From positions 1 through 64,000 of IMG/VR virus record IMGVR_UViG_3300028392_000053: DNA of 64,000 nucleotides. The stretch is one strand, 5' to 3'. How positions within the stretch are numbered: position 1 is the stretch's first letter; every line of letters starts with the position of its first letter. A model generated the notes under the pieces. It ran no database searches. It was not told the origin of the DNA and saw only the letters and a list, made by a program, of their open reading frames with translations. The position numbers were made by a program, and so were the translations under genes. This DNA comes from a virus. Positions 1,094 to 7,862 of the stretch are shown piece by piece.

Positions 1094-1159
1094 AGGATAA
1101 GTTCAGCAAACATTTATACATTTGACTTTTAATCAAAACCGTAAAAAATTATCCTGTTG
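1094..1159 (+). ncRNA. Y-RNA-like ncRNA (family A) carrying a Lys(UUU) anticodon stem-loop
   Basis: AGGATAA/TTATCCT closing stem, GTTCAGCAA motif, internal TTTGA-CTTTTAA-TCAAA. Confidence 0.75.
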
Positions 1160-1165
1160 TATTTT

Positions 1166-1241
1166 GCCCTGGTGACGGAATGGTATACGTACTGGTCTTA
1201 GAAACCAGGTTCTGAGAGTTCGAGTCTCTCCTAGGGCACCA
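1166..1241 (+). tRNA. trnL: tRNA-Leu(TAG), short variable loop
   Basis: Cloverleaf, loop CTTAGAA, 5-nt variable region, CCA. Confidence 0.9.
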
Positions 1242-1371
1242 AATCGGAAAGCAAAAACTTTCTGTTAATCCATACATTATGTGTATGGCGGGTCCAGCGG
1301 GGCATCACATGGTGTTCTTTCGGTGTCCACGTTAGAGACACGGCTAAAGTTCGTAATGCCACATATTTTTA

Positions 1372-1446
1372 GGTCTTAAAGTGTTCATGGACGCACACAT
1401 GCCTGTCACGCATGAAGAAGGGGATCGTTACCCCTTAAGACCGCCA
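1372..1446 (+). tRNA. trnD: tRNA-Asp(GTC)
   Basis: Cloverleaf, loop CTGTCAC, GCCA end. Confidence 0.9.
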
Positions 1447-1452
1447 AGATTT

Positions 1453-1526
1453 CCTCCGTTAGCTCAATGGTAGAGCAATCGGCTGATAACCGATAGACAG
1501 AAGTTCAATTCTTCTACAGAGGACCA
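1453..1526 (+). tRNA. trnI: tRNA-Ile(GAT)
   Basis: Cloverleaf, loop CTGATAA, CCA. Confidence 0.9.
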
Positions 1527-1532
1527 AGTTTT

Positions 1533-1590
1533 AGAATCCATTCAGCAAATAAAAACTTTCACTGGAAATGAAAAAAAGCGGATTCTGTTG
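1533..1590 (+). ncRNA. Y-RNA-like ncRNA (family A) carrying a Ser(GGA) anticodon stem-loop
   Basis: AGAATCC/GGATTCT closing stem, ATTCAGCAA motif, internal TTTCA-CTGGAAA-TGAAA. Confidence 0.75.
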
Positions 1591-1597
1591 TATTTTT

Positions 1598-1685
1598 GGA
1601 GCCTGTTCCCTTCAGCGGACTGTAAATCCGTTGCCTTTAATTGGAGGGTGGTTGGCGGATGGTTCGATTCCTTCAGGCTCCACCA
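1598..1685 (+). tRNA. trnY: atypical tRNA-Tyr(GTA) lacking a canonical D-arm
   Basis: Acceptor GGAGCCT/AGGCTCC-ACCA, loop CTGTAAA, T-loop TTCGATT; only ~10 nt between acceptor and anticodon stems. Confidence 0.7.
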
Positions 1686-1687
1686 GT

Positions 1688-1716
1688 TGCCAACATATAT
1701 AAAGTATGTTATAATA
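1688..1716 (+). promoter_or_regulatory. sigma70-type promoter inside tRNA array
   Basis: TTGCCA followed by TGTTATAAT just upstream of tRNA-fMet. Confidence 0.6.
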
Positions 1717-1723
1717 GTTTTAT

Positions 1724-1798
1724 CGCGGGATAGGAAAGAGGTAATCCGCTAGGTTCATACCCTAGAGATCGGTGGTTCAATTCCACCTCCCGCAACCA
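1724..1798 (+). tRNA. trnM: tRNA-fMet(CAT), initiator-like
   Basis: C1:A72 mismatch, CAT anticodon, CCA. Confidence 0.85.
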
Positions 1799-1804
1799 GT
1801 TTTC

Positions 1805-1878
1805 GCCCTATTAGTATAATGGTATTACACCTGTTTTGTAATCAGGTTACGGCAGTTCGATTCTGTCATGGGGCACCA
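1805..1878 (+). tRNA. trnT: tRNA-Thr(TGT)
   Basis: Cloverleaf, loop TTTGTAA, CCA. Confidence 0.92.
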
Positions 1879-1887
1879 AGTTTTTTT

Positions 1888-1961
1888 GCGGGGTTAGTTT
1901 AATGGTAAAACTACAGATTTCCAATCTGTTGTTGAGAGTTCGATTCTCTCACCCCGCTCCA
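1888..1961 (+). tRNA. trnG: tRNA-Gly(TCC)
   Basis: Cloverleaf, loop TTTCCAA, TCCA end. Confidence 0.93.
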
Positions 1962-1967
1962 GTTTAT

Positions 1968-2033
1968 GCAGTCGGATATTAACCGTGTTGGGGTCCACCC
2001 AATATCTACGTGGGAATCGTAGTGACTGCTCCA
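1968..2033 (+). ncRNA. 66-nt miniature tRNA-like RNA ending TCCA (Gly-like)
   Basis: GCAGTC/GACTGC acceptor-like stem, three hairpins, central loop GGTCCAC, no TTCG T-loop. Confidence 0.6.
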
Positions 2034-2038
2034 GTTTT

Positions 2039-2112
2039 CTCGGTGTGGTGAAATGGTATCATGCATGGTTTGGGACCATGTGGCGAAGGTTCGATTCCTT
2101 CTACCGAGACCA
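2039..2112 (+). tRNA. trnP: tRNA-Pro(TGG)
   Basis: Cloverleaf, loop TTTGGGA, CCA. Confidence 0.92.
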
Positions 2113-2130
2113 GTTTTATAGTTAGAATAT

Positions 2131-2206
2131 TCCGGTGAAGCAAACTAGGTGTGGGCAGAGGACTGTTAATCCTTGAAGCCAGGTTCGAATCCTGGGACCG
2201 GAGCCA
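2131..2206 (+). tRNA. trnN: tRNA-Asn(GTT)
   Basis: Cloverleaf, loop CTGTTAA, GCCA. Confidence 0.88.
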
Positions 2207-2211
2207 ATTTT

Positions 2212-2285
2212 GGGGAATTAGTATAATGGTATTACGGCAGCCTTGCAAGTTGTTCATAGGAGTTCGATTCTCCTATTCTCCACCA
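2212..2285 (+). tRNA. trnA: tRNA-Ala(TGC)
   Basis: Cloverleaf, G3:U70, loop CTTGCAA, CCA. Confidence 0.93.
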
Positions 2286-2291
2286 AATTTA

Positions 2292-2366
2292 GGTGATATG
2301 ACGTAGATGGATGCGTAACGGTTTCATAAGCCGATGAGGAAGGCTCGGTACCTTCTATCACCACCA
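2292..2366 (+). tRNA. trnM: tRNA-Met(CAT)
   Basis: Cloverleaf, loop TTCATAA, atypical T-loop CTCGGTA, CCA. Confidence 0.82.
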
Positions 2367-2380
2367 AAAGATACGAAACT

Positions 2381-2388
2381 TATAAATA
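2381..2388 (+). promoter_or_regulatory. T4-type late promoter TATAAATA
   Basis: Exact T4 gp55 consensus upstream of RBS AAGGAG and HNH ORF. Confidence 0.6.
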
Positions 2389-2411
2389 GTTCGTATACTT
2401 AAGGAGATAAC

Positions 2412-2840
2412 ATGAAAATATGTTCTTGTTGTAAAATAGAATATCCAATAGAAAAATTTGCCTTTAAAAATAAGGCATTAGATAAAAGAAATGCAATGTG
2501 TGATGATTGTAGGCAAGAGAGACAAAAACTTTCTTATTATAAACACCACGAAACGAATTTGAAAAGAATTAAACAATATAAAAAAGACAATAAAGAATGG
2601 TTTTTCGAAATGAAAAATAAACTATCTTGTTGTGTTTGTGGTGAATCGGAATCTTATTGTTTAGATTTTCACCATCTTGATGTTGCTAAAAAAGAGTTTG
2701 ATATTTCCACAAAAGTGGATGCTAGTAAAAATAAAATTTTAGAAGAAATCAATAAGTGTGCTTGTCTATGTGCAAATTGTCACAGAAAACATCACGCCGG
2801 CAAATTAAATGCGCCTTTGGTGAAACTGGATATCACATGA
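2412..2840 (+). CDS. HNH endonuclease (zinc-finger type)
   Basis: CxxC pairs, LDFHH...LCANCHRKHH; RBS AAGGAG; 3' end overlaps tRNA-Arg. Confidence 0.85.
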   Translation: MKICSCCKIEYPIEKFAFKNKALDKRNAMCDDCRQERQKLSYYKHHETNLKRIKQYKKDNKEWFFEMKNKLSCCVCGESESYCLDFHHLDVAKKEFDISTKVDASKNKILEEINKCACLCANCHRKHHAGKLNAPLVKLDIT

Positions 2841-2886
2841 GTCTACGAAATTCAGATTGGGGATTCGAATTCCTCAGGGCGCACCA
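2811..2886 (+). tRNA. trnR: tRNA-Arg(ACG)
   Basis: GCGCCTT/AGGGCGC-ACCA, loop CTACGAA. Confidence 0.9.
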
Positions 2887-2903
2887 ATTTTTAGGAGTTT
2901 TAA

Positions 2904-3038
2904 ATGGCTAATGTTAAAAAAGGCAATCTGACTGGTGCTCCACAATGGTGGAAACACCTCAAAGATTTCAAACGAGTGTTTTGGAAAACAGAACGCAAGG
3001 CTCAACAAAAAGACCTAAAAGGAAGATTGTATGAGTGA
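2904..3038 (+). CDS. small basic hypothetical protein (44 aa, MANVKKGNLTGAPQWWKHLK...)
   Basis: RBS AGGAG, overlaps start of next ORF; below ORF-track cutoff. Confidence 0.6.
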   Translation: MANVKKGNLTGAPQWWKHLKDFKRVFWKTERKAQQKDLKGRLYE

Positions 3039-3237
3039 TGGTGGAAAAGGTTCGTCACCCAGACCTTATAGTGTTTCGCAAAACGAATTCTCTAAGAATT
3101 GGGACACAATCTTTAGAAAAGATCCACGGGAAATTGAGGATCAAAAAAATGAAGATGAGGCTTTTGAAGAAATTTCACGGAGAGTCCTAGATATGCCTGG
3201 AACAATTGGTTCAGCTAAAATTGTTTTTTCCGTGTGA
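3031..3237 (+). CDS. hypothetical protein
   Basis: 68-aa ORF starting MSDGGKGSSPRP. Confidence 0.65.
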   Translation: MSDGGKGSSPRPYSVSQNEFSKNWDTIFRKDPREIEDQKNEDEAFEEISRRVLDMPGTIGSAKIVFSV

Positions 3238-3258
3238 TTCAGAAGTTAAAAATAATAT

Positions 3259-3332
3259 GTCTCGATAGTGTAATGGCAGCACTGCGGTCTCCAAAACCGT
3301 AAGTCTAGGTTCGAGTCCTAGTCGGGATGCCA
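3259..3332 (+). tRNA. trnW: tRNA-Trp(CCA)
   Basis: Cloverleaf, loop CTCCAAA, GCCA. Confidence 0.92.
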
Positions 3333-3346
3333 AATAAGGAAATGAT

Positions 3347-3838
3347 ATGAAAAATTTTGATATCCAAAAAGTAAAAGATTTTATTTTGGCTCAAGGACCA
3401 GACACACGTGTTTACCTTGGTGCAGACTCCGAACGTATGCGTGTAAACGGAGTTTGGTATGCGGATTACGCTTTGGCTGTCGTTGTTCATATCGATGGTT
3501 GTCACGGATGTAAAATCTTCGGATTTGTTGACCGTGAATTAGATTATGACCACAAGAAGTCCAAGCCTGCAATGCGTTTGATGACAGAAGTTTACAAAGT
3601 ATCCGCTCTGTTCCAAGAAATGCAGGATGTATTGGAAGACCGTCACGTTGAAGTTCACTTGGACCTTAACAAGTCAACTGAACACGGTTCTTCTTGTGTT
3701 GTTCAACAAGCAATTGGTTATATCAAAGGTACATGTAACATGACACCAATGGTTAAGCCAGATGCGCCGGCCGCTTCTTTCTGTGCAGACCGTCTAAAGC
3801 GGATTCTAGCAGAACAAGAATTGACCGAAGCCCACTAA
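3347..3838 (+). CDS. RNase H-like YkuK (DUF458) family protein
   Basis: YLGADS, RLMTEV, EVHLDLN, ASFCAD motifs. Confidence 0.75.
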   Translation: MKNFDIQKVKDFILAQGPDTRVYLGADSERMRVNGVWYADYALAVVVHIDGCHGCKIFGFVDRELDYDHKKSKPAMRLMTEVYKVSALFQEMQDVLEDRHVEVHLDLNKSTEHGSSCVVQQAIGYIKGTCNMTPMVKPDAPAASFCADRLKRILAEQELTEAH

Positions 3839-3877
3839 TCTCCTACATAAGGGTTTAACTACCCTTAGGAGATTAGT

Positions 3878-4261
3878 ATGGCTAGAAAACCAAATTTAGC
3901 AAAGACTGCGAATAGAGATACACACGTTGGTCATGGAATGGATAGAAGTCCTAAATGGCCTGGTGTTCAGAAACTACATTTGAAGTTTCATCCTGTTTGC
4001 GAATCTTGTGGTTCAACTAACAATTTGAATGTCCATCATAAGAAGCCATTCCATTTGTTTCCAGAACATGAATTGGATTTAAATAATCTAATTACACTTT
4101 GTATGGATCCATTGAAAGAGTGTCATATTAAAATTGGACATGGTGATAACTTTAAAGACTACAATCCAGAAGTAGAAACAGATGCACAAAAAGTTCGATT
4201 AGATGTTAATTTATTTGAATCGGTTGTAGCAGAAGCAAAGAAGAAACGTTTAATATCTTAA
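3878..4261 (+). CDS. HNH endonuclease
   Basis: CESCG...NVHHKKP...NLITLC...CHIKIGH. Confidence 0.8.
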   Translation: MARKPNLAKTANRDTHVGHGMDRSPKWPGVQKLHLKFHPVCESCGSTNNLNVHHKKPFHLFPEHELDLNNLITLCMDPLKECHIKIGHGDNFKDYNPEVETDAQKVRLDVNLFESVVAEAKKKRLIS

Positions 4262-4302
4262 ACACGGCTGGACCCTCTGCGAAAGTGCGGTCCAGTTCTC
4301 AT

Positions 4303-4376
4303 GCGGGTATGATGTAATGGTAGCTTATGACCTTGCCAAGGTTAATGTGAGAGTTCGATTCTCTCTACCCGCTCCA
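4303..4376 (+). tRNA. trnG: tRNA-Gly(GCC)
   Basis: Cloverleaf, loop TTGCCAA, TCCA. Confidence 0.92.
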
Positions 4377-4384
4377 GTTTTTAT

Positions 4385-4459
4385 GTGGTTGTTAGTTTAG
4401 TGGCAAAACCGCGGGTTGTGATTCCGCTATCACGGGTTCGATTCCCGTACATCCACCCA
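4385..4459 (+). tRNA. trnH: tRNA-His(GTG)
   Basis: G-1:C73, loop TTGTGAT, CCA. Confidence 0.92.
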
Positions 4460-4478
4460 ATTTTATTAAGGATATTTT

Positions 4479-4718
4479 ATGACGTATGTTCCATTGAATC
4501 GTAATGTAATTGTTGAACGAAAAGCACCAGAGAAAGTTTCTGCTGGTGGTATCATTCTTCAATCTTCACTTGAACCAGACCGTGCAACTGTTGTTGCTAC
4601 CTCTGACGAATCCCTTTCAATTGGTGAAGAACTATTGATTAATTGGAACAAAGCATATAAGATTGAAAATGAAACATATCGTATTCACATTGATGATGTG
4701 ATTGCAGTATTTGAATAA
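4479..4718 (+). CDS. groES: GroES-like co-chaperonin
   Basis: PLNRNVIVER...SAGGIIL mobile loop...DDVIAV. Confidence 0.85.
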   Translation: MTYVPLNRNVIVERKAPEKVSAGGIILQSSLEPDRATVVATSDESLSIGEELLINWNKAYKIENETYRIHIDDVIAVFE

Positions 4719-4793
4719 GCCTTGTTAACTCAGCGGTAGAGTGCCCTCCTTACAAGTGGGAAGCCGGCGGTTCGATCCCGTCACAAGGTACCA
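4719..4793 (+). tRNA. trnV: tRNA-Val(TAC)
   Basis: Cloverleaf, loop CTTACAA, CCA. Confidence 0.92.
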
Positions 4794-4796
4794 AGT

Positions 4797-4975
4797 TTTG
4801 TAAGTGTAGATGTAGTGAAAGTAAGGCGTCGAAAACCTTATGAGGCAACGGTTCGAGTCCGGCAACATGGCAACGGCTAAGTAACTACTATTACTACGTA
4901 CCTCTATCCTGTCCGCGGCTTTAAAGAAAATACAGGTAGAATGGTTTCGATGAGTGAGGTGGAACTACTTACAAA
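4797..4975 (+). ncRNA. putative structured ncRNA (~180 nt)
   Basis: TTTGTAAGT/ACTTACAAA closing stem, internal hairpins, T-loop-like CGGTTCGAGTCCG, no ORF. Confidence 0.5.
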
Positions 4976-5028
4976 TTCAATTTCTCCATAACACACGGAG
5001 TATAATAGGATAAGTTGTGTGTTAATTT

Positions 5029-5102
5029 GCTTTTATCGTACAGTGACAGTACACGCCCTTGGTACGGGCGAAACCCAAGTTTGATTCTTGGTAGAAGCAC
5101 CA
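5029..5102 (+). tRNA. trnT: tRNA-Thr(GGT)
   Basis: Cloverleaf, loop TTGGTAC, CCA. Confidence 0.87.
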
Positions 5103-5106
5103 ATTT

Positions 5107-5182
5107 GCGTCTTTAGCTGATATGGTTATAGCACCGGTTTGAAGCACCGAGGAAAGTGGTTCGATTCCACTAGGACGCACCA
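5107..5182 (+). tRNA. trnF: tRNA-Phe(GAA)
   Basis: Cloverleaf, loop TTGAAGC, CCA. Confidence 0.9.
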
Positions 5183-5305
5183 TATTGAAACATATTCATC
5201 ATTGGTTGGGAGCCTGTAGCGGATGGCATCCGGGACTACTCAACGAAACAGCATTAGCCAGCGTGATGAAAAGCCTCTTGACGGCGAGAGTATGTTTCAA
5301 TATGG
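5180..5305 (+). ncRNA. structured ncRNA closed by 18-bp stem (family B)
   Basis: CCATATTGAAACATATTC pairs with GAGTATGTTTCAATATGG. Confidence 0.65.
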
Positions 5306-5378
5306 GTTGTAAACTTAAGTGGTGAAGTAACCGGCTCTTAACCGGAAGAACAGAGTTCGATTCTCTGACAGCCCACCA
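5304..5378 (+). tRNA. trnK: tRNA-Lys(CTT)
   Basis: Cloverleaf, loop CTCTTAA, CCA. Confidence 0.92.
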
Positions 5379-5383
5379 AATTT

Positions 5384-5510
5384 GGAGATGTGATGTAATG
5401 GTAGCATAGCATAGCAAAAAAATTATCCTGTAAAGGATAAGTTCTGCAACAACTACGCTCTAACTCTGTAAAAGTTCTTGTGTGCGGTTCGAATCCCACC
5501 ATCTCCACCA
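5384..5510 (+). ncRNA. chimeric tRNA / family A RNA (circularly permuted, CCA-ended)
   Basis: Acceptor GGAGATG/CATCTCC-ACCA with D- and T-arms; insert TTATCCT-GTAA-AGGATAA-GTTCTGCAA plus AACT-CTGTAAA-AGTT hairpin. Confidence 0.75.
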
Positions 5511-5517
5511 ATTTTAT

Positions 5518-5593
5518 GCCCCGATGACGGAATGGTATACGTGCTTGATTCAAAATCAAGATTCTGTGGGTTCGAGTCCCACTTGGGGTACCA
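5518..5593 (+). tRNA. trnL: tRNA-Leu(CAA), short variable loop
   Basis: Cloverleaf, loop TTCAAAA, CCA. Confidence 0.9.
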
Positions 5594-5594
5594 T

Positions 5595-5683
5595 GGAAGA
5601 TGCAGTAAGATGGTTCTTACACCTGCTTGGAAAGCAGGCCACTGGCTTTGCCGGTGGGGGTTCAATTCCTCCTTCTTCCACCA
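5595..5683 (+). tRNA. trnS: tRNA-Ser(GGA)
   Basis: Long variable arm, loop TTGGAAA, CCA. Confidence 0.9.
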
Positions 5684-5684
5684 T

Positions 5685-5759
5685 GTCTCTGTAGTTCAAC
5701 GGATAGAATACATTCCTCCTAAGAATGGGATACAGGCTCGATTCCTGTCGGAGACACCA
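5685..5759 (+). tRNA. trnR: tRNA-Arg(CCT)
   Basis: Cloverleaf, loop CTCCTAA, CCA. Confidence 0.9.
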
Positions 5760-5820
5760 TGTTGTTTTTAGGTAACAATGCAAGAAAAGTCTTGCCAAAT
5801 TACACTTAACGTGATATAAT
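5760..5820 (+). promoter_or_regulatory. promoter for Y-like RNA + DUF2828 unit
   Basis: TGTTG-N8-TAACA 5760-5777, TTGCCA 5792-5797, 17-nt spacer, TATAAT 5815-5820. Confidence 0.75.
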
Positions 5821-5848
5821 CTTTATATGGAGATTATATAAGTTTTTT

Positions 5849-6060
5849 AGGATGGATTCAGCAATTATAAACTTAATTGACTAAAGACCCGTTACTACAG
5901 GAGGACCACCGCAAGGTGTAATTACGTAACTAGGGAATCAACCTGAATTAAATTTGACGCTGGAAAAGACAGCAAAGATGATGGTAGTCCATTAGGGTTT
6001 GAGTGGTTCAATTGCACTCCGGTTAGAGTAAACCGAAAATTACAGAACGACCATCCTGTT
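5849..6060 (+). ncRNA. long Y-RNA-like ncRNA (family A)
   Basis: AGGATGG/CCATCCT stem, ATTCAGCAA motif, multi-hairpin interior with T-arm-like GAGTGGTTCAATTGCACTC. Confidence 0.72.
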
Positions 6061-6079
6061 ATTTTATTTTGAGAGTTTT

Positions 6080-6188
6080 AGAGTAGGTTCAGCAAAACAA
6101 AACTAGCTGGTTCGATTCCAGCATTATCCACCCAAACTCGAAAGAGACTCGGATCATGTGCCATGGTGGCAATCAAACTACTCTGTTG
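6080..6188 (+). ncRNA. YrlA-like Y RNA (family A)
   Basis: AGAGTAG/CTACTCT stem, GTTCAGCAA, T-arm GCTGG-TTCGATT-CCAGC preceding a D-like hairpin. Confidence 0.78.
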
Positions 6189-6193
6189 TTTTT

Positions 6194-6314
6194 AGGTTAA
6201 GTTCCGCAAAACAAATTAATGCAAATGGAAACTGAAAGGCCGGTTCGATTCCGGGTTCCCTTAGAGGATAAAGTGTAATGGTTGCACATCGGATGCTAAA
6301 AGTTTAACCTGTTG
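6194..6314 (+). ncRNA. YrlA-like Y RNA (family A)
   Basis: AGGTTAA/TTAACCT stem, GTTCCGCAA, T-arm CCGG-TTCGATT-CCGG then D-arm GTGTAATGGTTGCAC. Confidence 0.8.
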
Positions 6315-6332
6315 ATTGAAAAGGAGTTCATT

Positions 6333-7754
6333 ATGTCAACATTTGTCGAAGCCGTTATGAATCAAGAAGCCCGTACCGAAAACGGTATGAAGGCTCGCAA
6401 GTCTACCGCCAATGCGGTGGTTGATTTGTTTTACAATGCGGGTGCATCCCGTGGAAAAGATATTAAGCCTGCATTTGCGGCTGCCTTGGCAGAGAACCGT
6501 GAATTGGCTCTCCGTGTTGCCGCATGGCTACGTGATGCACGTGGTGGTGCTGGTGAACGTCAACTGTTCCGTGATATCCTAGTGTATCTGGAAAAGACTG
6601 ATACGGAAGCCGCTAAGGCTCTGTTGGCTAAGGTGCCTGAATTGGGACGTTGGGATGACTTGTTCATCTTCAAGACCAAGGTTTTGAAAGAAGCCGCATA
6701 TACCTTGCTTGGCAACGCTTTGCGTGAAAAGAATGGTTTGGCGGCTAAGTGGTCTCCTCGCCAAGGTCCAATTGCGGCAGAAATCCGTACATTCTTCGGA
6801 ATGTCACCAAAGTTCTACCGCAAGTCTTTGGTTGAAATGACCAAGGTTGTTGAAACAAATATGTGTGCAAAGGACTGGGATTCCATTAACTTTTCACATG
6901 TTCCTTCCGTAGCGGCTGCCCGTTACAAGAAGGCCTTTAATCGTAACACCCAAACATATGCAACTTATGTTGCGGCTTTGGTAAAGGGTGACAACCCTGA
7001 AGTTAAGGTTAACGCATCTGTGGCATTCCCATATGATGTGCTGAAGGGTCGTATCTCCAACTATGGAGTTTCATTCAACAAGACCGAATTGGACTTGATT
7101 GAAGCACAATGGAATGCATTGCCTAACTATGTTGGGGATGCTAACATTCTGCCTCTAGTTGACGTATCTGGTTCTATGACCTGCACCGCAGGCAAGACCG
7201 GTAAGTTGACCTGTTTGGAAGTTGCAGTCTCTTTGGGATTGTACCTTGCTGACAAGAACAAGGGTGCGTTCAAGGACACATTCTTGACCTTCTCTGGCAA
7301 GCCAGAATTGATGCACCTAAAAGGTGGTATCAACTCTAAGATTGACCAAATGGTTAAGTCCAACTGGGATATGAACACTGACCTGAACAAGGCCTTTGCG
7401 AAAATCCTAGACGTTGCTGTAAAAGGTAACGTAGCACAAGAAGATATGCCAGGAATGGTGTTGATTCTGTCTGACATGCAATTTGACGCTTGCGTTAAGC
7501 ATGATGACTCTGCAATCGAAATGATTGCACGTAAGTACGAAGCCGCAGGATACACTTTACCAAAGGTTGTATTCTGGAACTTGAACGCCTCATATGGTAA
7601 CTCACCTGTGAAGTTTGACAAGTCTGGTACTGCACTGGTGTCTGGTTTCTCTCCAGCCGTGGTTAAGCCACTCCTTGCTGGTGACCTAGAAACCTTCACA
7701 CCAGAATCTGTGATGCTTAAGACCATCATGGATGACCGTTACAAAGTGCTGTAA
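6333..7754 (+). CDS. DUF2828-type helical + vWA protein, Ro60/TROVE-like putative RNA-binding protein
   Basis: RTENG, LRDARGGAGER, GRWDDL, LAAKW, MIDAS DVSGS, ILSDMQFD, VFWNL, LVSGFS; RBS AAGGAG before ATG 6333. Confidence 0.8.
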   Translation: MSTFVEAVMNQEARTENGMKARKSTANAVVDLFYNAGASRGKDIKPAFAAALAENRELALRVAAWLRDARGGAGERQLFRDILVYLEKTDTEAAKALLAKVPELGRWDDLFIFKTKVLKEAAYTLLGNALREKNGLAAKWSPRQGPIAAEIRTFFGMSPKFYRKSLVEMTKVVETNMCAKDWDSINFSHVPSVAAARYKKAFNRNTQTYATYVAALVKGDNPEVKVNASVAFPYDVLKGRISNYGVSFNKTELDLIEAQWNALPNYVGDANILPLVDVSGSMTCTAGKTGKLTCLEVAVSLGLYLADKNKGAFKDTFLTFSGKPELMHLKGGINSKIDQMVKSNWDMNTDLNKAFAKILDVAVKGNVAQEDMPGMVLILSDMQFDACVKHDDSAIEMIARKYEAAGYTLPKVVFWNLNASYGNSPVKFDKSGTALVSGFSPAVVKPLLAGDLETFTPESVMLKTIMDDRYKVL

Positions 7755-7774
7755 CGCAGTGGGCACCGAAAGGT

Positions 7775-7860
7775 GTCCATTTTGAAATACATTACTGAAG
7801 TTGGTTCAGTCAGACAGGGATATCCAATTGCCTATGTCGTTAGTGTGTTTCAAAATGGAC
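7775..7860 (+). ncRNA. structured ncRNA closed by 20-bp stem (family B)
   Basis: GTCCATTTTGAAATACATTA pairs with TAGTGTGTTTCAAAATGGAC. Confidence 0.62.
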
Positions 7861-7862
7861 AT

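What the first reader, a model, noticed from the sequence alone, without database searches (positions are those of the whole stretch)
1094..7754. Candidate new RNP system: DUF2828/vWA (Ro60-like) protein with six Y-like RNAs that share one scaffold and carry interchangeable tRNA-mimic payloads
Seen in sequence: five RNAs (1094, 1533, 5849, 6080, 6194) follow the pattern TTT-AG-N5-RTTC(A/C)GCAA ... N5'-CT-GTT. The 7-bp closing stem differs in every copy yet always pairs: AGGATAA/TTATCCT, AGAATCC/GGATTCT, AGGATGG/CCATCCT, AGAGTAG/CTACTCT, AGGTTAA/TTAACCT. A sixth copy is permuted inside a tRNA frame (5384). Three copies lie in tandem between a promoter (5792-5820) and the RBS of the 6333-7754 gene, whose product has a helical N-domain and a MIDAS vWA domain. 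Established: Ro60/Rsr is a helical ring plus vWA that binds the terminal stem of Y RNAs, and bacterial YrlA RNAs carry a tRNA-like domain and are encoded next to rsr. Inference: this DUF2828-type protein is a Ro60 analogue with its own recognition motif (RUUCNGCAA). It may protect or present several tRNA mimics, for example against host tRNA-targeting defences or in RNA repair or decay.
Basis: partly seen in the sequence, partly recalled or inferred. Interest (0 to 1): 0.95.

Follow-up and report, generated by a model that had tools for sequence, protein, structure and literature searches.

The report
Phage Ro60-like protein with handle-tagged RNAs
A large freshwater phage encodes a ring-shaped protein predicted to fold like the RNA-binding autoantigen Ro60, together with six small RNAs that share one conserved "handle" but carry different tRNA look-alike parts; the same undescribed protein-RNA pairing recurs in very different phages, giant viruses and bacteria.

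Summary
Five RNAs (1094-1155, 1533-1586, 5849-6057, 6080-6184, 6194-6310) share a 7-bp terminal stem followed by RTTCNGCAA. A sixth, permuted copy sits in a tRNA frame (5384-5510).

The adjacent gene (6333-7754; Pfam DUF2828 + DUF7788; PHROG 850 "RNA-binding protein") gives a confident model. Its ten best PDB matches are all Ro60, Rsr or phage Ro60.

The handle generalises to stem + NWWCNGCAA. It lies beside this gene in Salmonella, Mycobacterium, Listeria, Campylobacter, Staphylococcus and Bacillus phages. In ten whole phage records its presence tracked the protein. It also occurs in 3 of 3 giant-virus bins. In 80 bacterial loci, 43 of 43 hits were on the gene's strand.

Payloads are anticodon stem-loops or YrlA-like tRNA bodies. 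The handle matches neither YrlA nor any Rfam family at threshold. It resembles Dictyostelium Class I RNAs; the best score here is 34.5 bits against a cut-off of 41.5.

Binding, discrete transcripts and function are untested. My best guess is a Ro/Y-like particle that displays tRNA mimics in the conflict over tRNA cleavage and repair.

My paper searches found no description. This scan has found the same system before on other DNA (381 notes), including the Dictyostelium resemblance.

The parts
1094..1155 (+). Handle RNA 1 (62 nt). Stem AGGATAA/TTATCCT, motif GTTCAGCAA (1101-1109). The payload is a 5-bp stem (1121-1125/1133-1137) with the 7-nt loop CTTTTAA (1126-1132), which is an anticodon-loop look-alike (UUU). 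An A-rich run precedes the 3' strand and GTTG follows. It begins 9 nt after tRNA-Lys(ttt).
   Evidence: the minimum-energy fold shows both stems; model R1 57.5 bits
1533..1586 (+). Handle RNA 2 (54 nt). Stem AGAATCC/GGATTCT, motif ATTCAGCAA (1540-1548). By eye the payload is a 5-bp stem (1557-1561/1569-1573) with the loop CTGGAAA; RNAfold's minimum-energy fold prefers another pairing. It begins 7 nt after tRNA-Ile.
   Evidence: R1 55.6 bits; Rfam Dicty_Class_I_RNA 34.5 bits, below the 41.5 cut-off
5384..5510 (+). tRNA-like frame holding the permuted handle. It has a 7-bp acceptor stem plus ACCA, a D-like arm and a T-arm. The anticodon position holds A7, TTATCCT, GTAA, AGGATAA, GTTCTGCAA (5423-5449). 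An extra 4-bp hairpin with the loop CTGTAAA lies at 5462-5476.
   Evidence: z-score -2.7. Not called by ARAGORN. Weak tmRNA match of 17.8 bits. The permuted hairpin is kept in 8 loci, some from the same contigs, with a compensatory change (TTATTCT/AGAATAA).
5792..5820 (+). Promoter-like site (TTGCCA, 17 nt, TATAAT, with TG) ahead of the three tandem RNAs and the gene.
   Evidence: 11 of 12 matches. This is a consensus match only.
5849..6057 (+). Handle RNA 3 (209 nt). Stem AGGATGG/CCATCCT, motif ATTCAGCAA. It carries a large structured payload of unknown kind with a T-loop-like hairpin.
   Evidence: z-score -3.75, 0 of the shuffles as stable. Orthologues in L001, L007, L012, L013 and L026. R1 gives only a partial match of 17-22 bits.
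6080..6184 (+). Handle RNA 4 (105 nt). Stem AGAGTAG/CTACTCT. The payload is a T-arm, then a capped 7-bp stem, then a small D-like hairpin. This is a permuted tRNA body with YrlA-like topology.
   Evidence: 10 orthologues; 5 pairs with compensatory changes. R1 33.2 bits although it was not a seed.
6194..6310 (+). Handle RNA 5 (117 nt). Stem AGGTTAA/TTAACCT, motif GTTCCGCAA. The payload is a T-arm, a capped variable hairpin and a D-arm. It ends 22 nt before the start codon, in the gene's 5' leader.
   Evidence: 12 orthologues. R1 35.7 bits although it was not a seed. In 39 of 45 non-redundant related loci a handle ends 13-36 nt before the start codon.
6333..7754 (+). Gene for a 473-aa Ro60-fold protein (helical ring domain plus vWA). 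The ribosome-binding site AAGGAG is at 6321-6326.
   Evidence: Pfam DUF7788 1e-48 and DUF2828 1.5e-21. PHROG 850 'RNA-binding protein' 3.6e-141. AlphaFold2 pLDDT 93.9, pTM 0.92. Foldseek top 10 are all Ro60/Rsr/phage Ro60. D277, S279, S281, T349 and D381 are invariant.

Best explanation
This is a phage-encoded relative of the Ro60/Y-RNA ribonucleoprotein.

The 473-aa DUF2828/DUF7788 protein is a Ro60-type helical ring with a C-terminal vWA domain. This rests on predicted fold.

Its gene travels with a family of small RNAs. Each RNA is closed by the same handle: a 7-bp Watson-Crick helix joining the 5' and 3' ends. A single-stranded NWWCNGCAA follows the 5' strand, and an A-rich run precedes the 3' strand. 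Covariation and gene-RNA co-occurrence across phyla support this.

Inferred steps:
- The protein binds the handle, as Ro60 binds the conserved stem of Y RNAs. This stabilises the RNAs.
- The variable payload is displayed to enzymes that recognise tRNA. Payloads are a bare anticodon stem-loop, a permuted T-arm/acceptor/D-arm body, or a whole tRNA frame.
- The most likely role lies in the conflict over tRNA integrity during infection. The particle would act as a decoy or sink for anticodon nucleases, or as a platform that couples damaged tRNA to repair or decay enzymes.
- The handle that ends 22 nt before the start codon could let the protein regulate its own translation.

My odds: the RNAs are the protein's cognate partners, about 0.75; the tRNA-conflict role, about 0.4.
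For: Fold:
- AlphaFold2 model pLDDT 93.9, pTM 0.92.
- The ten best Foldseek PDB matches are all Ro60, Rsr or Thermus-phage Ro60. E-values run 7e-9 to 1e-5, query TM 0.48-0.65, with 507-569 aligned columns. The next matches (E 1e-2 or worse) cover vWA domains only.
- UniRef names some eukaryotic and giant-virus DUF2828 proteins 'TROVE domain-containing'.

The RNA is real:
- 6 motif hits against 0.18 expected.
- In 1.17 Mb of related loci there are 168 full elements on the gene strand and 1 on the other.
- 406 of 1292 motif occurrences on the + strand have a 7/7 partner, against 47 of 1065 on the - strand.
- Every one of the 7 stem pairs shows 3-4 pair types across 51 elements.

Co-occurrence:
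- Elements lie within about 2.6 kb of the gene, on its strand, in 6 of 7 distant GenBank phages fetched.
- In whole-record scans all 11 model hits in four phages lie within 1.1 kb of the gene.
- Of 10 records, 8 have the protein. Seven of those have model hits, and the eighth has 2 pattern hits. The 2 records without the protein have none.
- 3 of 3 giant-virus bins have hits.
- In 80 bacterial-assembly loci, 43 of 43 hits are on the gene strand, in 32 loci. Thirty-seven start within 800 nt upstream of the gene.

Payloads:
- Anticodon-like 7-nt loops.
- T-arm, capped stem and D-arm bodies with compensatory changes.

Context:
- RtcB lies in 9 of the 80 bacterial loci. In most of these it lies directly next to the gene (directly downstream in five). 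An RNA ligase lies in 2 more.
- RtcB lies in the Listeria phage locus. RNA ligase and a tRNA nucleotidyltransferase lie in Serratia phage BF.

Published hints, from passages read in PMC12282133:
- In Listeria phage CKA15 the homologue CKA15_055 was found in virions.
- Three highly transcribed non-coding regions lie within 2 kb upstream of that gene.
Against: - There are no binding data.
- No transcript ends are known. Metatranscriptome contigs of relatives cover the region, but they cannot show ends or exclude DNA carry-over.
- Sequence-level homology to Ro60 is not significant. phmmer gives 0 hits, and a profile gives only E 0.15-0.25 on the vWA segment. The Ro60 link therefore rests on a predicted fold, and I did not inspect ring closure myself.
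- The handle is not always next to the gene. In Serratia phage BF the three hits lie about 200 kb away, and in Stenotrophomonas phage DLP_6 9-14 kb away.
- Only 32 of 80 bacterial loci scored with my model. The model missed both Campylobacter elements.
- The stems have very few G-U pairs: 2.9% of cells, and none in the seeds. This is unusual for an RNA helix.
- This phage's own 84.5-kb record (about 50% complete) has no RtcB, T4-type RNA ligase or CCA-adding enzyme. The RNA-ligase control rang in no control genome, so that negative is weak.
- The decoy/repair role is inference from context only.
Confidence: 0.6

Rival explanations
1. Same particle, different job. It is an RNA quality-control or repair scaffold of the Rsr/YrlA type. 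It would tether a host or phage enzyme (PNPase, RtcB or another ligase) through the tRNA-like payload in order to degrade or reseal damaged RNAs. It would not be a decoy for nucleases.
For: - Fold identity with Ro60/Rsr.
- Payloads of the 6080 and 6194 elements have the YrlA-like arrangement of T arm, capped acceptor-like stem and D arm (with the description of YrlA in PMC4201824, passages read).
- RtcB or an RNA ligase lies next to the gene in 11 of 80 bacterial loci and in two GenBank phages.
- Thermus phage phiRo60 with its Yrl RNAs forms complexes with host PNPase (PMC12135203, passages read).
Against: - Many payloads are bare anticodon stem-loops with no T or D arm. That fits display of anticodon loops better than a tether.
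- This phage record has no ligase.
- No interaction data exist.
Confidence: 0.3
2. The handle is only a cis-acting leader or processing/stability clamp of the tRNA operon. It might be a site for RNase P, RNase E or RNase III, or a translational operator. On this view it sits near DUF2828 because both belong to tRNA arrays, and the protein does not bind it.
For: - Elements follow tRNAs by 7-9 nt at 1094 and 1533.
- The stem has 7 bp, like a tRNA acceptor stem.
- A handle ends 13-36 nt before the start codon in 39 of 45 related loci.
Against: - In Mycobacterium phage Archie and Staphylococcus phage S-CoN_Ph4 the elements lie directly after the gene. No tRNA array is annotated around them, and they occur nowhere else in the genome.
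- Two tRNA-rich phages without the gene (Akh-2, JSF10) have none.
- In bacterial loci the hits track the gene's strand 43 to 0.
- Copies lie upstream, downstream and far from the gene, so a pure leader role does not fit.
Confidence: 0.1
3. The repeats act at the DNA level. They would be boundaries of mobile or recombining cassettes (attC-like or MITE-like inverted repeats) rather than RNA.
For: - The number of cassettes ahead of the gene varies from 0 to 4 among relatives.
- An RNA-library contig of a relative joins 6065 to 6190, so it lacks the middle cassette.
- The stems are almost purely Watson-Crick.
Against: - There is strict strand bias with the gene and the tRNAs: 168 to 1 and 43 to 0.
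- A conserved single-stranded motif lies on one side only.
- The handle is conserved with freely varying stems across Proteobacteria, Firmicutes and Actinobacteria phages and giant viruses.
- The payloads are folded tRNA parts with compensatory changes.
Confidence: 0.04

Closest known systems
Ro60 (Rsr, TROVE + vWA) with Y RNAs, especially bacterial and mycobacteriophage YrlA (Rfam RF02553; Chen et al. 2014, PMC4201824) and Thermus phage phiLo phiRo60 with Yrl1/Yrl2 (PMC12135203; PDB 9KOP, 9L5Y)
   Same: - Predicted protein fold: ring plus vWA, with the top 10 PDB matches all in this group.
- The small RNAs are encoded next to the gene on the same strand.
- The 5' and 3' ends of each RNA pair in a terminal stem.
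- Some RNAs carry a tRNA-like module with T arm, capped acceptor-like stem and D arm.
- In some genomes the gene sits beside RtcB, as in the Salmonella rsr-yrlBA-rtcBA operon (recalled; its title and abstract were seen in the listing).
   Different: - There is no significant sequence similarity to TROVE proteins.
- The RNAs do not match the YrlA model. The best match is 24.8 bits against a cut-off of 69, and it lies on a pair of tRNAs.
- The conserved module is a stem plus NWWCNGCAA, not the GNCGAAN0-1G / bulged-helix site described for Y RNAs.
- Arrays hold up to 4-6 RNAs with swapped payloads, many of them bare anticodon stem-loops.
- Chen et al. searched only genomes annotated with a TROVE domain, so DUF2828 phages lay outside their survey.
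Dictyostelium Class I RNAs (Rfam RF01414; Kjellin et al. 2021, PMC7919456)
   Same: - Size of 42-65 nt (two of the six here are 54 and 62 nt).
- A short stem joins the 5' and 3' ends. Its structure is kept but its sequence is not.
- A conserved single-stranded motif directly follows the 5' strand. In the Rfam consensus it ends ...UUACAGCAA. Kjellin's near-invariant positions C6, C9, A10 and A11 coincide with invariant handle positions.
- Class I RNAs start AAG and end CUGU. Here the start is UAG and the end CUGU(U). Staphylococcus and Bacillus phage copies start AAG.
- The rest of the RNA is variable.
- Rfam's model scores the window's 1534-1587 element at 34.5 bits (E 0.0014 in a 9-kb scan) and an orthologue at 40.4 bits.
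   Different: - No element reaches the 41.5-bit cut-off.
- Only the AGAATCC-handle orthologues and one weak 17-bit hit match at all. That is 3 of at least 20 elements, and 0 hits (65 kb holding at least 20 elements from distant phages and giant viruses).
- I could not establish whether Dictyostelium encodes a DUF2828 protein.
- The known direct binder of a Class I RNA is an RRM protein, Rnp1A/CIBP.
- Kjellin et al. found no Class I RNAs in plants or other eukaryotes, although plants do have DUF2828 proteins.
Phage tRNA arrays and tRNA-repair genes as counter-measures to host anticodon nucleases (recalled: T4 Pnk/Rnl1 against PrrC; phage tRNAs that replace cleaved host tRNAs)
   Same: - The system is embedded in a 26-tRNA array.
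- The payloads copy anticodon loops. The commonest triplets in relatives are UCU, UUU and UGU.
- Repair ligases are neighbours in some genomes.
   Different: These RNAs are not decodable tRNAs. Most have no acceptor end, and they come with a dedicated Ro60-like protein. No nuclease target is known.

Membership tests
Ro60 / TROVE protein family | Helical (HEAT-like) ring domain followed by a vWA domain with a MIDAS site | tested here: met
   - The AlphaFold2 model (pLDDT 93.9) aligns over 507-569 columns with 1YVR, 2I91, 1YVP, 9NFA, 9KOP, 2NVO, 9NEP and 9L5Y, with E-values 7e-9 to 1e-5.
- D277, S279, S281, T349 and D381 are invariant in 100 homologues. Reading these as a MIDAS site is from recall.
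Ro60 / TROVE protein family | Significant sequence match to TROVE (Pfam/PROSITE) or to solved Ro60 proteins | tested here: not met
   - Pfam at E <= 0.01 gives only DUF7788 and DUF2828.
- phmmer against PDB gives 0 hits.
- A profile of 100 homologues gives E 0.15-0.25, on the vWA segment only.
- UniRef does label some eukaryotic and giant-virus DUF2828 proteins 'TROVE domain-containing'.
Ro60 / TROVE protein family | Binds a conserved stem of small non-coding RNAs encoded nearby | not testable with these tools
   Only gene-RNA co-occurrence is shown.
Y RNA / YrlA (Rfam RF02553) | Score at or above the Rfam gathering cut-off (69 bits) | tested here: not met
   There is no YrlA match on any handle element at E <= 1 (window) or E <= 10. 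The weak 20-25-bit matches fall on tRNA genes.
Y RNA / YrlA (Rfam RF02553) | Terminal stem formed by the 5' and 3' ends, plus a tRNA-like domain (T arm, capped acceptor-like stem, D arm) | tested here: met
   Met for 6080-6184 and 6194-6310. Not met for 1094 and 1533, which carry only an anticodon-like hairpin.
Y RNA / YrlA (Rfam RF02553) | GNCGAAN0-1G motif near the 5' end (the Ro-binding site as given in PMC4201824) | tested here: not met
   The conserved module is NWWCNGCAA, with C, G, C, A, A invariant in 51 seeds. The YrlA motif is as quoted.
Dictyostelium Class I RNA (Rfam RF01414) | Score at or above the Rfam gathering cut-off (41.5 bits) | tested here: not met
   - Window: 34.5 and 17.0 bits.
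- Relatives: 40.4, 38.6 and 33.2 bits, all orthologues of the 1533 element.
- 0 hits in 65 kb holding at least 20 elements from distant phages and giant viruses.
Dictyostelium Class I RNA (Rfam RF01414) | Short terminal stem, conserved motif directly 3' of the 5' strand, conserved ends (AAG ... CUGU), variable remainder, about 60 nt | tested here: met
   By inspection against the Rfam consensus and Kjellin's description. It is met fully by 1094-1155 and 1533-1586. The other four share only the handle.
Dictyostelium Class I RNA (Rfam RF01414) | DUSE promoter about 60 nt upstream; expression in dictyostelids | not tested
   This is a eukaryotic promoter element and does not apply to a phage. No dictyostelid genome is on hand.
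tRNA (for 5384-5510) | Recognised as a tRNA by ARAGORN or Rfam RF00005 | tested here: not met
   Not among the 26 ARAGORN genes. No RF00005 match, only tmRNA at 17.8 bits. The acceptor stem, ACCA and T arm are present by eye.

The most novel reading that the evidence does not exclude
The handle RNAs and the 'Class I' RNAs of Dictyostelium are one ancient RNA family. Its common partner would be the DUF2828 (TROVE-like + vWA) protein, and the family would span phages, giant viruses, bacteria and eukaryotes.

If so, the long-unexplained Class I RNAs are the Y-RNA equivalents of a second Ro-type particle. One of their pull-down proteins of unknown function, DDB_G0281243 (named in the Kjellin preprint), is a candidate for that partner.

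For:
- The invariant motif positions, the terminal stem, the ends and the size are shared.
- The system exists in viruses of eukaryotes.
- DUF2828 proteins are widespread in eukaryotes.

Against:
- Rfam's model misses most elements.
- No dictyostelid DUF2828 protein was seen among the 120 listed homologues. That list is not exhaustive.
- Plants have the protein, but no Class I RNAs were reported in them.
Probability: 0.25. Interest if true: 0.95.

Novelty: new variant of a known kind. Interest (0 to 1): 0.8.

Why it matters
Ro60/Y-RNA particles are known from animals, about 5% of bacteria and a few phages. Their function is still debated.

Here a second, sequence-unrelated branch of the same fold comes with its own modular RNA family. 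It is present in 710 GenBank phage records by tblastn. These include well-studied Felix O1-, P100-, Twort- and cluster L-type phages, and the system also occurs in giant viruses and gut bacteria.

The RNAs are built like a kit: one handle with exchangeable tRNA parts. That makes them a natural system for asking how viruses manipulate tRNA-recognising enzymes and tRNA-targeting immunity.

Several host phages are genetically tractable, so the hypothesis is directly testable.

If the link to Dictyostelium Class I RNAs holds, it would explain an abundant eukaryotic RNA class whose partner and mechanism have been open since 2004.

Tried and rejected
Sequence and structure searches that gave little:
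- Searches of the protein against PDB gave nothing significant.
- Near and distant DNA searches of the region against GenBank phages found only tRNA pieces and short DUF2828 stretches, so no close relative is deposited.
- The search for homologous proteins with the phage protein returned only close relatives.
- The second IMG/VR scan, run with an alignment, again returned the same lineage. Diversity therefore had to come from GenBank hits.

The Dictyostelium question:
- I tried to learn whether Dictyostelium has a DUF2828 protein. A 'longer' search gave 3 proteins.
- A search from a eukaryote-like homologue listed fungi, algae, plants, tardigrades, oomycetes and Rhizaria, but no dictyostelid among 120 rows. 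The list is not exhaustive.
- Both protein-atlas calls showed only viral, bacterial and plant clusters.
- Paper searches for DDB_G0281243 and for Dictyostelium + TROVE gave nothing useful.
- Avesson et al. 2011 is not held.

Paper searches behind the statement that this is not in print:
- DUF2828 gave 5 papers, none on function.
- ACAGCAA / DUF7788 / UCP015417 / PF11443 / IPR011205 gave 6 unrelated papers.
- Ro-like / Y RNA / bacteriophage / tRNA-like / Rsr was also searched.
- The library lacks most subscription journals.

Supplements are closed, and I did not ask for them. Chen 2014's Table S2 (the 22 phages with YrlA) and Kjellin's Tables S4/S5 could bear on the claims.

RNA-library evidence:
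- Four metatranscriptome runs hold contigs of relatives at 90-99% likeness.
- Shares of sampled words were small (0.06-0.18).
- Contigs show no ends, strand or level, and DNA carry-over is possible. I draw no conclusion on expression or habitat from them.

Ideas rejected:
- A nested handle inside the 5849 payload (an internal ACAGCAA). It is not kept in orthologues.
- RtcB, T4 RNA ligase or a CCA-adding enzyme in this phage. None was found in the half-complete record.
- Membership in Rfam Class I. The score cut-off is not reached.

Limits of my own statistics:
- The seeds of model R1 were chosen for perfect pairing. The 100% pairing therefore holds by construction. Only the variety of pair types and the strand and location statistics are informative.
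- Loci L086-L164 partly repeat contigs of L001-L078, so the counts include duplicates.
- In one search I dropped by eye 16 of 68 candidate elements. Most lay inside coding sequence and lacked the AG...CUG ends. After that I built the alignment.

Full report
WHAT IS THERE

The first 8 kb of the window is a phage tRNA array. ARAGORN finds 26 tRNA genes, all on the + strand. The array is interrupted by two HNH endonuclease genes, an RNase H-like gene and a GroES-like gene. The window is the first 64 kb of an 84.5-kb IMG/VR virus record that is estimated to be about 50% complete.

Chance expectation is 0.18. Five copies have a perfect 7-bp Watson-Crick partner 54-209 nt downstream, followed by GTT.

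The sixth copy is the same module turned inside out. It reads 3'-type strand, GTAA loop, 5'-type strand, GTTCTGCAA (5423-5449). It sits where the anticodon loop should be in a tRNA-like frame that has a 7-bp acceptor stem and an encoded ACCA (5384-5510). This permuted form is kept in relatives with a compensatory change, TTATCCT/AGGATAA against TTATTCT/AGAATAA.

A promoter-like site with an extended -10 lies at 5792-5820. It precedes three tandem elements. The last of these ends 22 nt before the ATG of the 6333-7754 gene.

IS IT MORE THAN CHANCE, AND IS IT RNA?

I scanned 78 IMG/VR loci that encode 67-96% identical proteins. A script found 168 complete elements on the gene's strand and 1 on the other strand in 1.17 Mb. 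Dozens of different stem sequences occurred, nearly all paired 7 of 7.

A less circular count used motif occurrences alone. On the + strand, 406 of 1292 have a perfect partner followed by G. On the - strand, 47 of 1065 do (some loci are duplicates).

Fifty-one diverse short elements aligned in register. All seven stem pairs vary, with 3-4 pair types each, while C, G, C, A, A of the motif are invariant. The 100% pairing in that alignment holds by construction, because I chose the seeds for pairing.

G-U pairs are rare, at 2.9% of cells. I cannot explain this. It may reflect recognition of helix geometry by a protein.

Transcription is not shown here. Contigs from four metatranscriptome runs cover relatives of the region, but they cannot show ends or exclude DNA. 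One such contig joins 6065 to 6190, so that relative lacks the middle cassette.

THE PROTEIN

Pfam gives DUF7788 (1e-48) and DUF2828 (1.5e-21). PHROGs gives family 850, 'RNA-binding protein', over the full length.

An AlphaFold2 model built on 100 diverse homologues is confident, with pLDDT 93.9 and pTM 0.92. The ten best Foldseek matches in the PDB are all Ro60 proteins: Xenopus and human Ro60, Deinococcus Rsr and Thermus phage phiRo60. The matches after these cover the vWA domain only.

Sequence methods do not see this relationship. The protein is therefore a Ro60-fold protein, but it is not a recognisable TROVE-family member by sequence.

Annotators already call homologues 'RNA-binding protein' or 'Ro-like RNA binding protein'. 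UniRef labels some eukaryotic members 'TROVE domain-containing'.

DOES THE RNA TRAVEL WITH THE PROTEIN?

tblastn finds the protein in 710 GenBank phage records. I fetched seven distant ones.

Six have 2-4 elements within about 2.6 kb of the gene, on its strand:
- Salmonella phage Si3 (Felix O1 type)
- Mycobacterium phage Archie
- Listeria phage LMLPA3
- Campylobacter phage CP30A
- Staphylococcus phage S-CoN_Ph4
- Bacillus phage PJN02

In these phages the motif reads TTACAGCAA, TAACAGCAA or ACACAGCAA. The general handle is therefore a 7-bp stem plus NWWCNGCAA.

I built a covariance model from the 51 seeds (R1). It then gave these results:
- It found the window's long-payload elements, which were not seeds.
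- In whole-record scans it placed all 11 hits in four phages within 1.1 kb of the gene and nowhere else.
- In a further five records its hits tracked the protein exactly. Akh-2 and JSF10 have neither. DLP_6, which I had picked as a negative control, turned out to have both. Serratia phage BF and PJN02 also have both.
- In BF the RNAs lie about 200 kb from the gene, and in DLP_6 9-14 kb away. Adjacency is therefore common but not obligatory.
- It missed the two Campylobacter copies.

Three of three giant-virus bins that encode the protein also have hits. One bin has an array of six among tRNAs.

In 80 loci from bacterial and archaeal assemblies the model gave 43 hits at E <= 0.01. All 43 are on the gene's strand, in 32 loci, and 37 begin within 800 nt upstream of the gene.

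In the window's own lineage a handle ends 13-36 nt before the start codon in 39 of 45 non-redundant loci. One to four handles precede the gene.

THE PAYLOADS

- Elements 1094 and 1533 carry a 5-bp stem with a 7-nt loop of anticodon-loop form, CTTTTAA and CTGGAAA. Orthologues of the 1533 element carry different triplets in that loop.
- Across relatives the commonest anticodon-like triplets are TCT, TTT and TGT. CGA and TCG counts are T-loops that my filter mis-scored.
- Elements 6080 and 6194 carry a T arm, a capped stem and a D-like arm, with compensatory changes among orthologues. This is the permuted tRNA body described for YrlA.
- Other relatives carry D arm, anticodon arm and T arm in the normal order, with the handle in place of the acceptor stem.
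- The 209-nt payload of 5849 is well folded (z-score -3.75), but its kind is unknown.
- The same handle sequence occurs with different payload classes, so the payloads are indeed interchangeable.

HOW IT PROBABLY WORKS

Shown:
- a Ro60-fold protein (from a predicted model);
- a covarying RNA family;
- their co-inheritance across phyla;
- tRNA-mimic payloads;
- occasional operonic RtcB or RNA ligase. RtcB lies in 9 and an RNA ligase in 2 of the 80 bacterial loci. One or the other also lies in the Listeria phage and Serratia phage loci.

Inferred:
- the protein binds the handle, as Ro60 binds the Y-RNA stem;
- the payload recruits or distracts enzymes that read tRNA;
- the arena is tRNA cleavage by host defences and its repair;
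- the handle in the gene's leader allows autoregulation.

A 2025 study of the P100-like Listeria phage CKA15 found the homologue in virions. It also found three very highly transcribed non-coding regions within 2 kb upstream, and it speculated that they might be Y RNAs (PMC12282133, passages read). It did not define the RNA family. In the collinear phage LMLPA3 one of those regions probably corresponds to a ROOL-like RNA. That correspondence is my inference.

COMPARISON WITH WHAT IS KNOWN

The closest system is Ro60 with YrlA-type Y RNAs (see Closest known systems and Membership tests). The fold and the logic are the same. The protein sequence family and the RNA recognition module differ, and the RNAs fail the YrlA model.

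The handle strikingly resembles Dictyostelium Class I RNAs in stem, motif, ends and size. However, Rfam's model scores only the AGAATCC-handle orthologues, at 33-40 bits and below the cut-off. It misses every other element tested. I could not find out whether Dictyostelium has the protein. The Kjellin preprint names an uncharacterised pull-down protein, DDB_G0281243.

NOVELTY AND EARLIER NOTES

I found no paper describing the handle RNA family or a function for DUF2828/DUF7788. The library has limits, and supplements were closed.

This scan has met the same system before on other DNA. There are 381 notes in at least 263 genomes, and 22 of them mention the Dictyostelium resemblance.

I reached the co-occurrence, the fold and the Class I resemblance before reading those notes. 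The giant-virus test followed a lead from one of them, and it held.

VERDICT

This is a new variant of a known kind of particle. Binding, transcripts and function remain to be shown.

Noticed in passing
window 1597-1685: A probable tRNA-Tyr (anticodon loop CTGTAAA) with a long variable arm, a 9-bp acceptor-type stem and CCA. ARAGORN missed it. Rfam scores it only as tRNA-Sec-like, at 33.6 bits.
   Followed up: partly
window 1962-2038: A cloverleaf-like RNA with a 6-bp acceptor-type stem plus UCCA and a T-arm-like hairpin. Its 8-bp 'anticodon' arm is capped by a 5-nt loop. Neither ARAGORN nor Rfam calls it.
   Followed up: partly
window 5183-5303 and 7755-7862: Two unannotated stretches, each closed by a long perfect stem (15 and 19 bp) of similar sequence (UUGAAA.A.AU). 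They fold far better than shuffles, with z-scores of -3.4 and -4.7. The second lies directly after the DUF2828 stop codon. Their kind is unknown.
   Followed up: partly
L081 2470-3021 (Listeria phage LMLPA3): A ROOL-RNA-like match of 89 bits (cut-off 99.1, E 6e-17) about 1 kb upstream of the DUF2828 gene. It probably corresponds to the most highly transcribed region of the related phage CKA15 (PMC12282133). That correspondence is my inference.
   Followed up: partly
window 2412-2840 and 2811-2886: An HNH endonuclease gene inside the tRNA array overlaps the start of tRNA-Arg(acg) by 30 nt. A second HNH gene lies at 3878-4261.
   Followed up: no
window 3347-3838: An RNase H-like protein (Pfam PF04308, 5e-13; PHROG 11311 of unknown function) encoded among the tRNAs.
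   Followed up: no
window 6065-6190: An RNA-library contig of a relative (run X1, also X8) joins 6065 to 6190 with 6 other letters between. That relative therefore lacks the middle handle RNA. Cassette number also varies from 0 to 4 among IMG/VR relatives.
   Followed up: partly
L226, L242, L247, L245, L230, L205, L225 (bacterial assemblies): RtcB, or an RNA ligase in L205 and L225, is encoded directly downstream of the DUF2828 gene. This recalls the Salmonella rsr-yrlBA-rtcBA operon.
   Followed up: partly
GenBank KU574722 (Pectobacterium phage CBB) and Listeria phage CKA15: The DUF2828 homologue is annotated 'structural protein' in CBB. In CKA15 it was detected in purified virions with 57% coverage (PMC12282133). 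The protein may therefore be packaged and delivered with the DNA.
   Followed up: no
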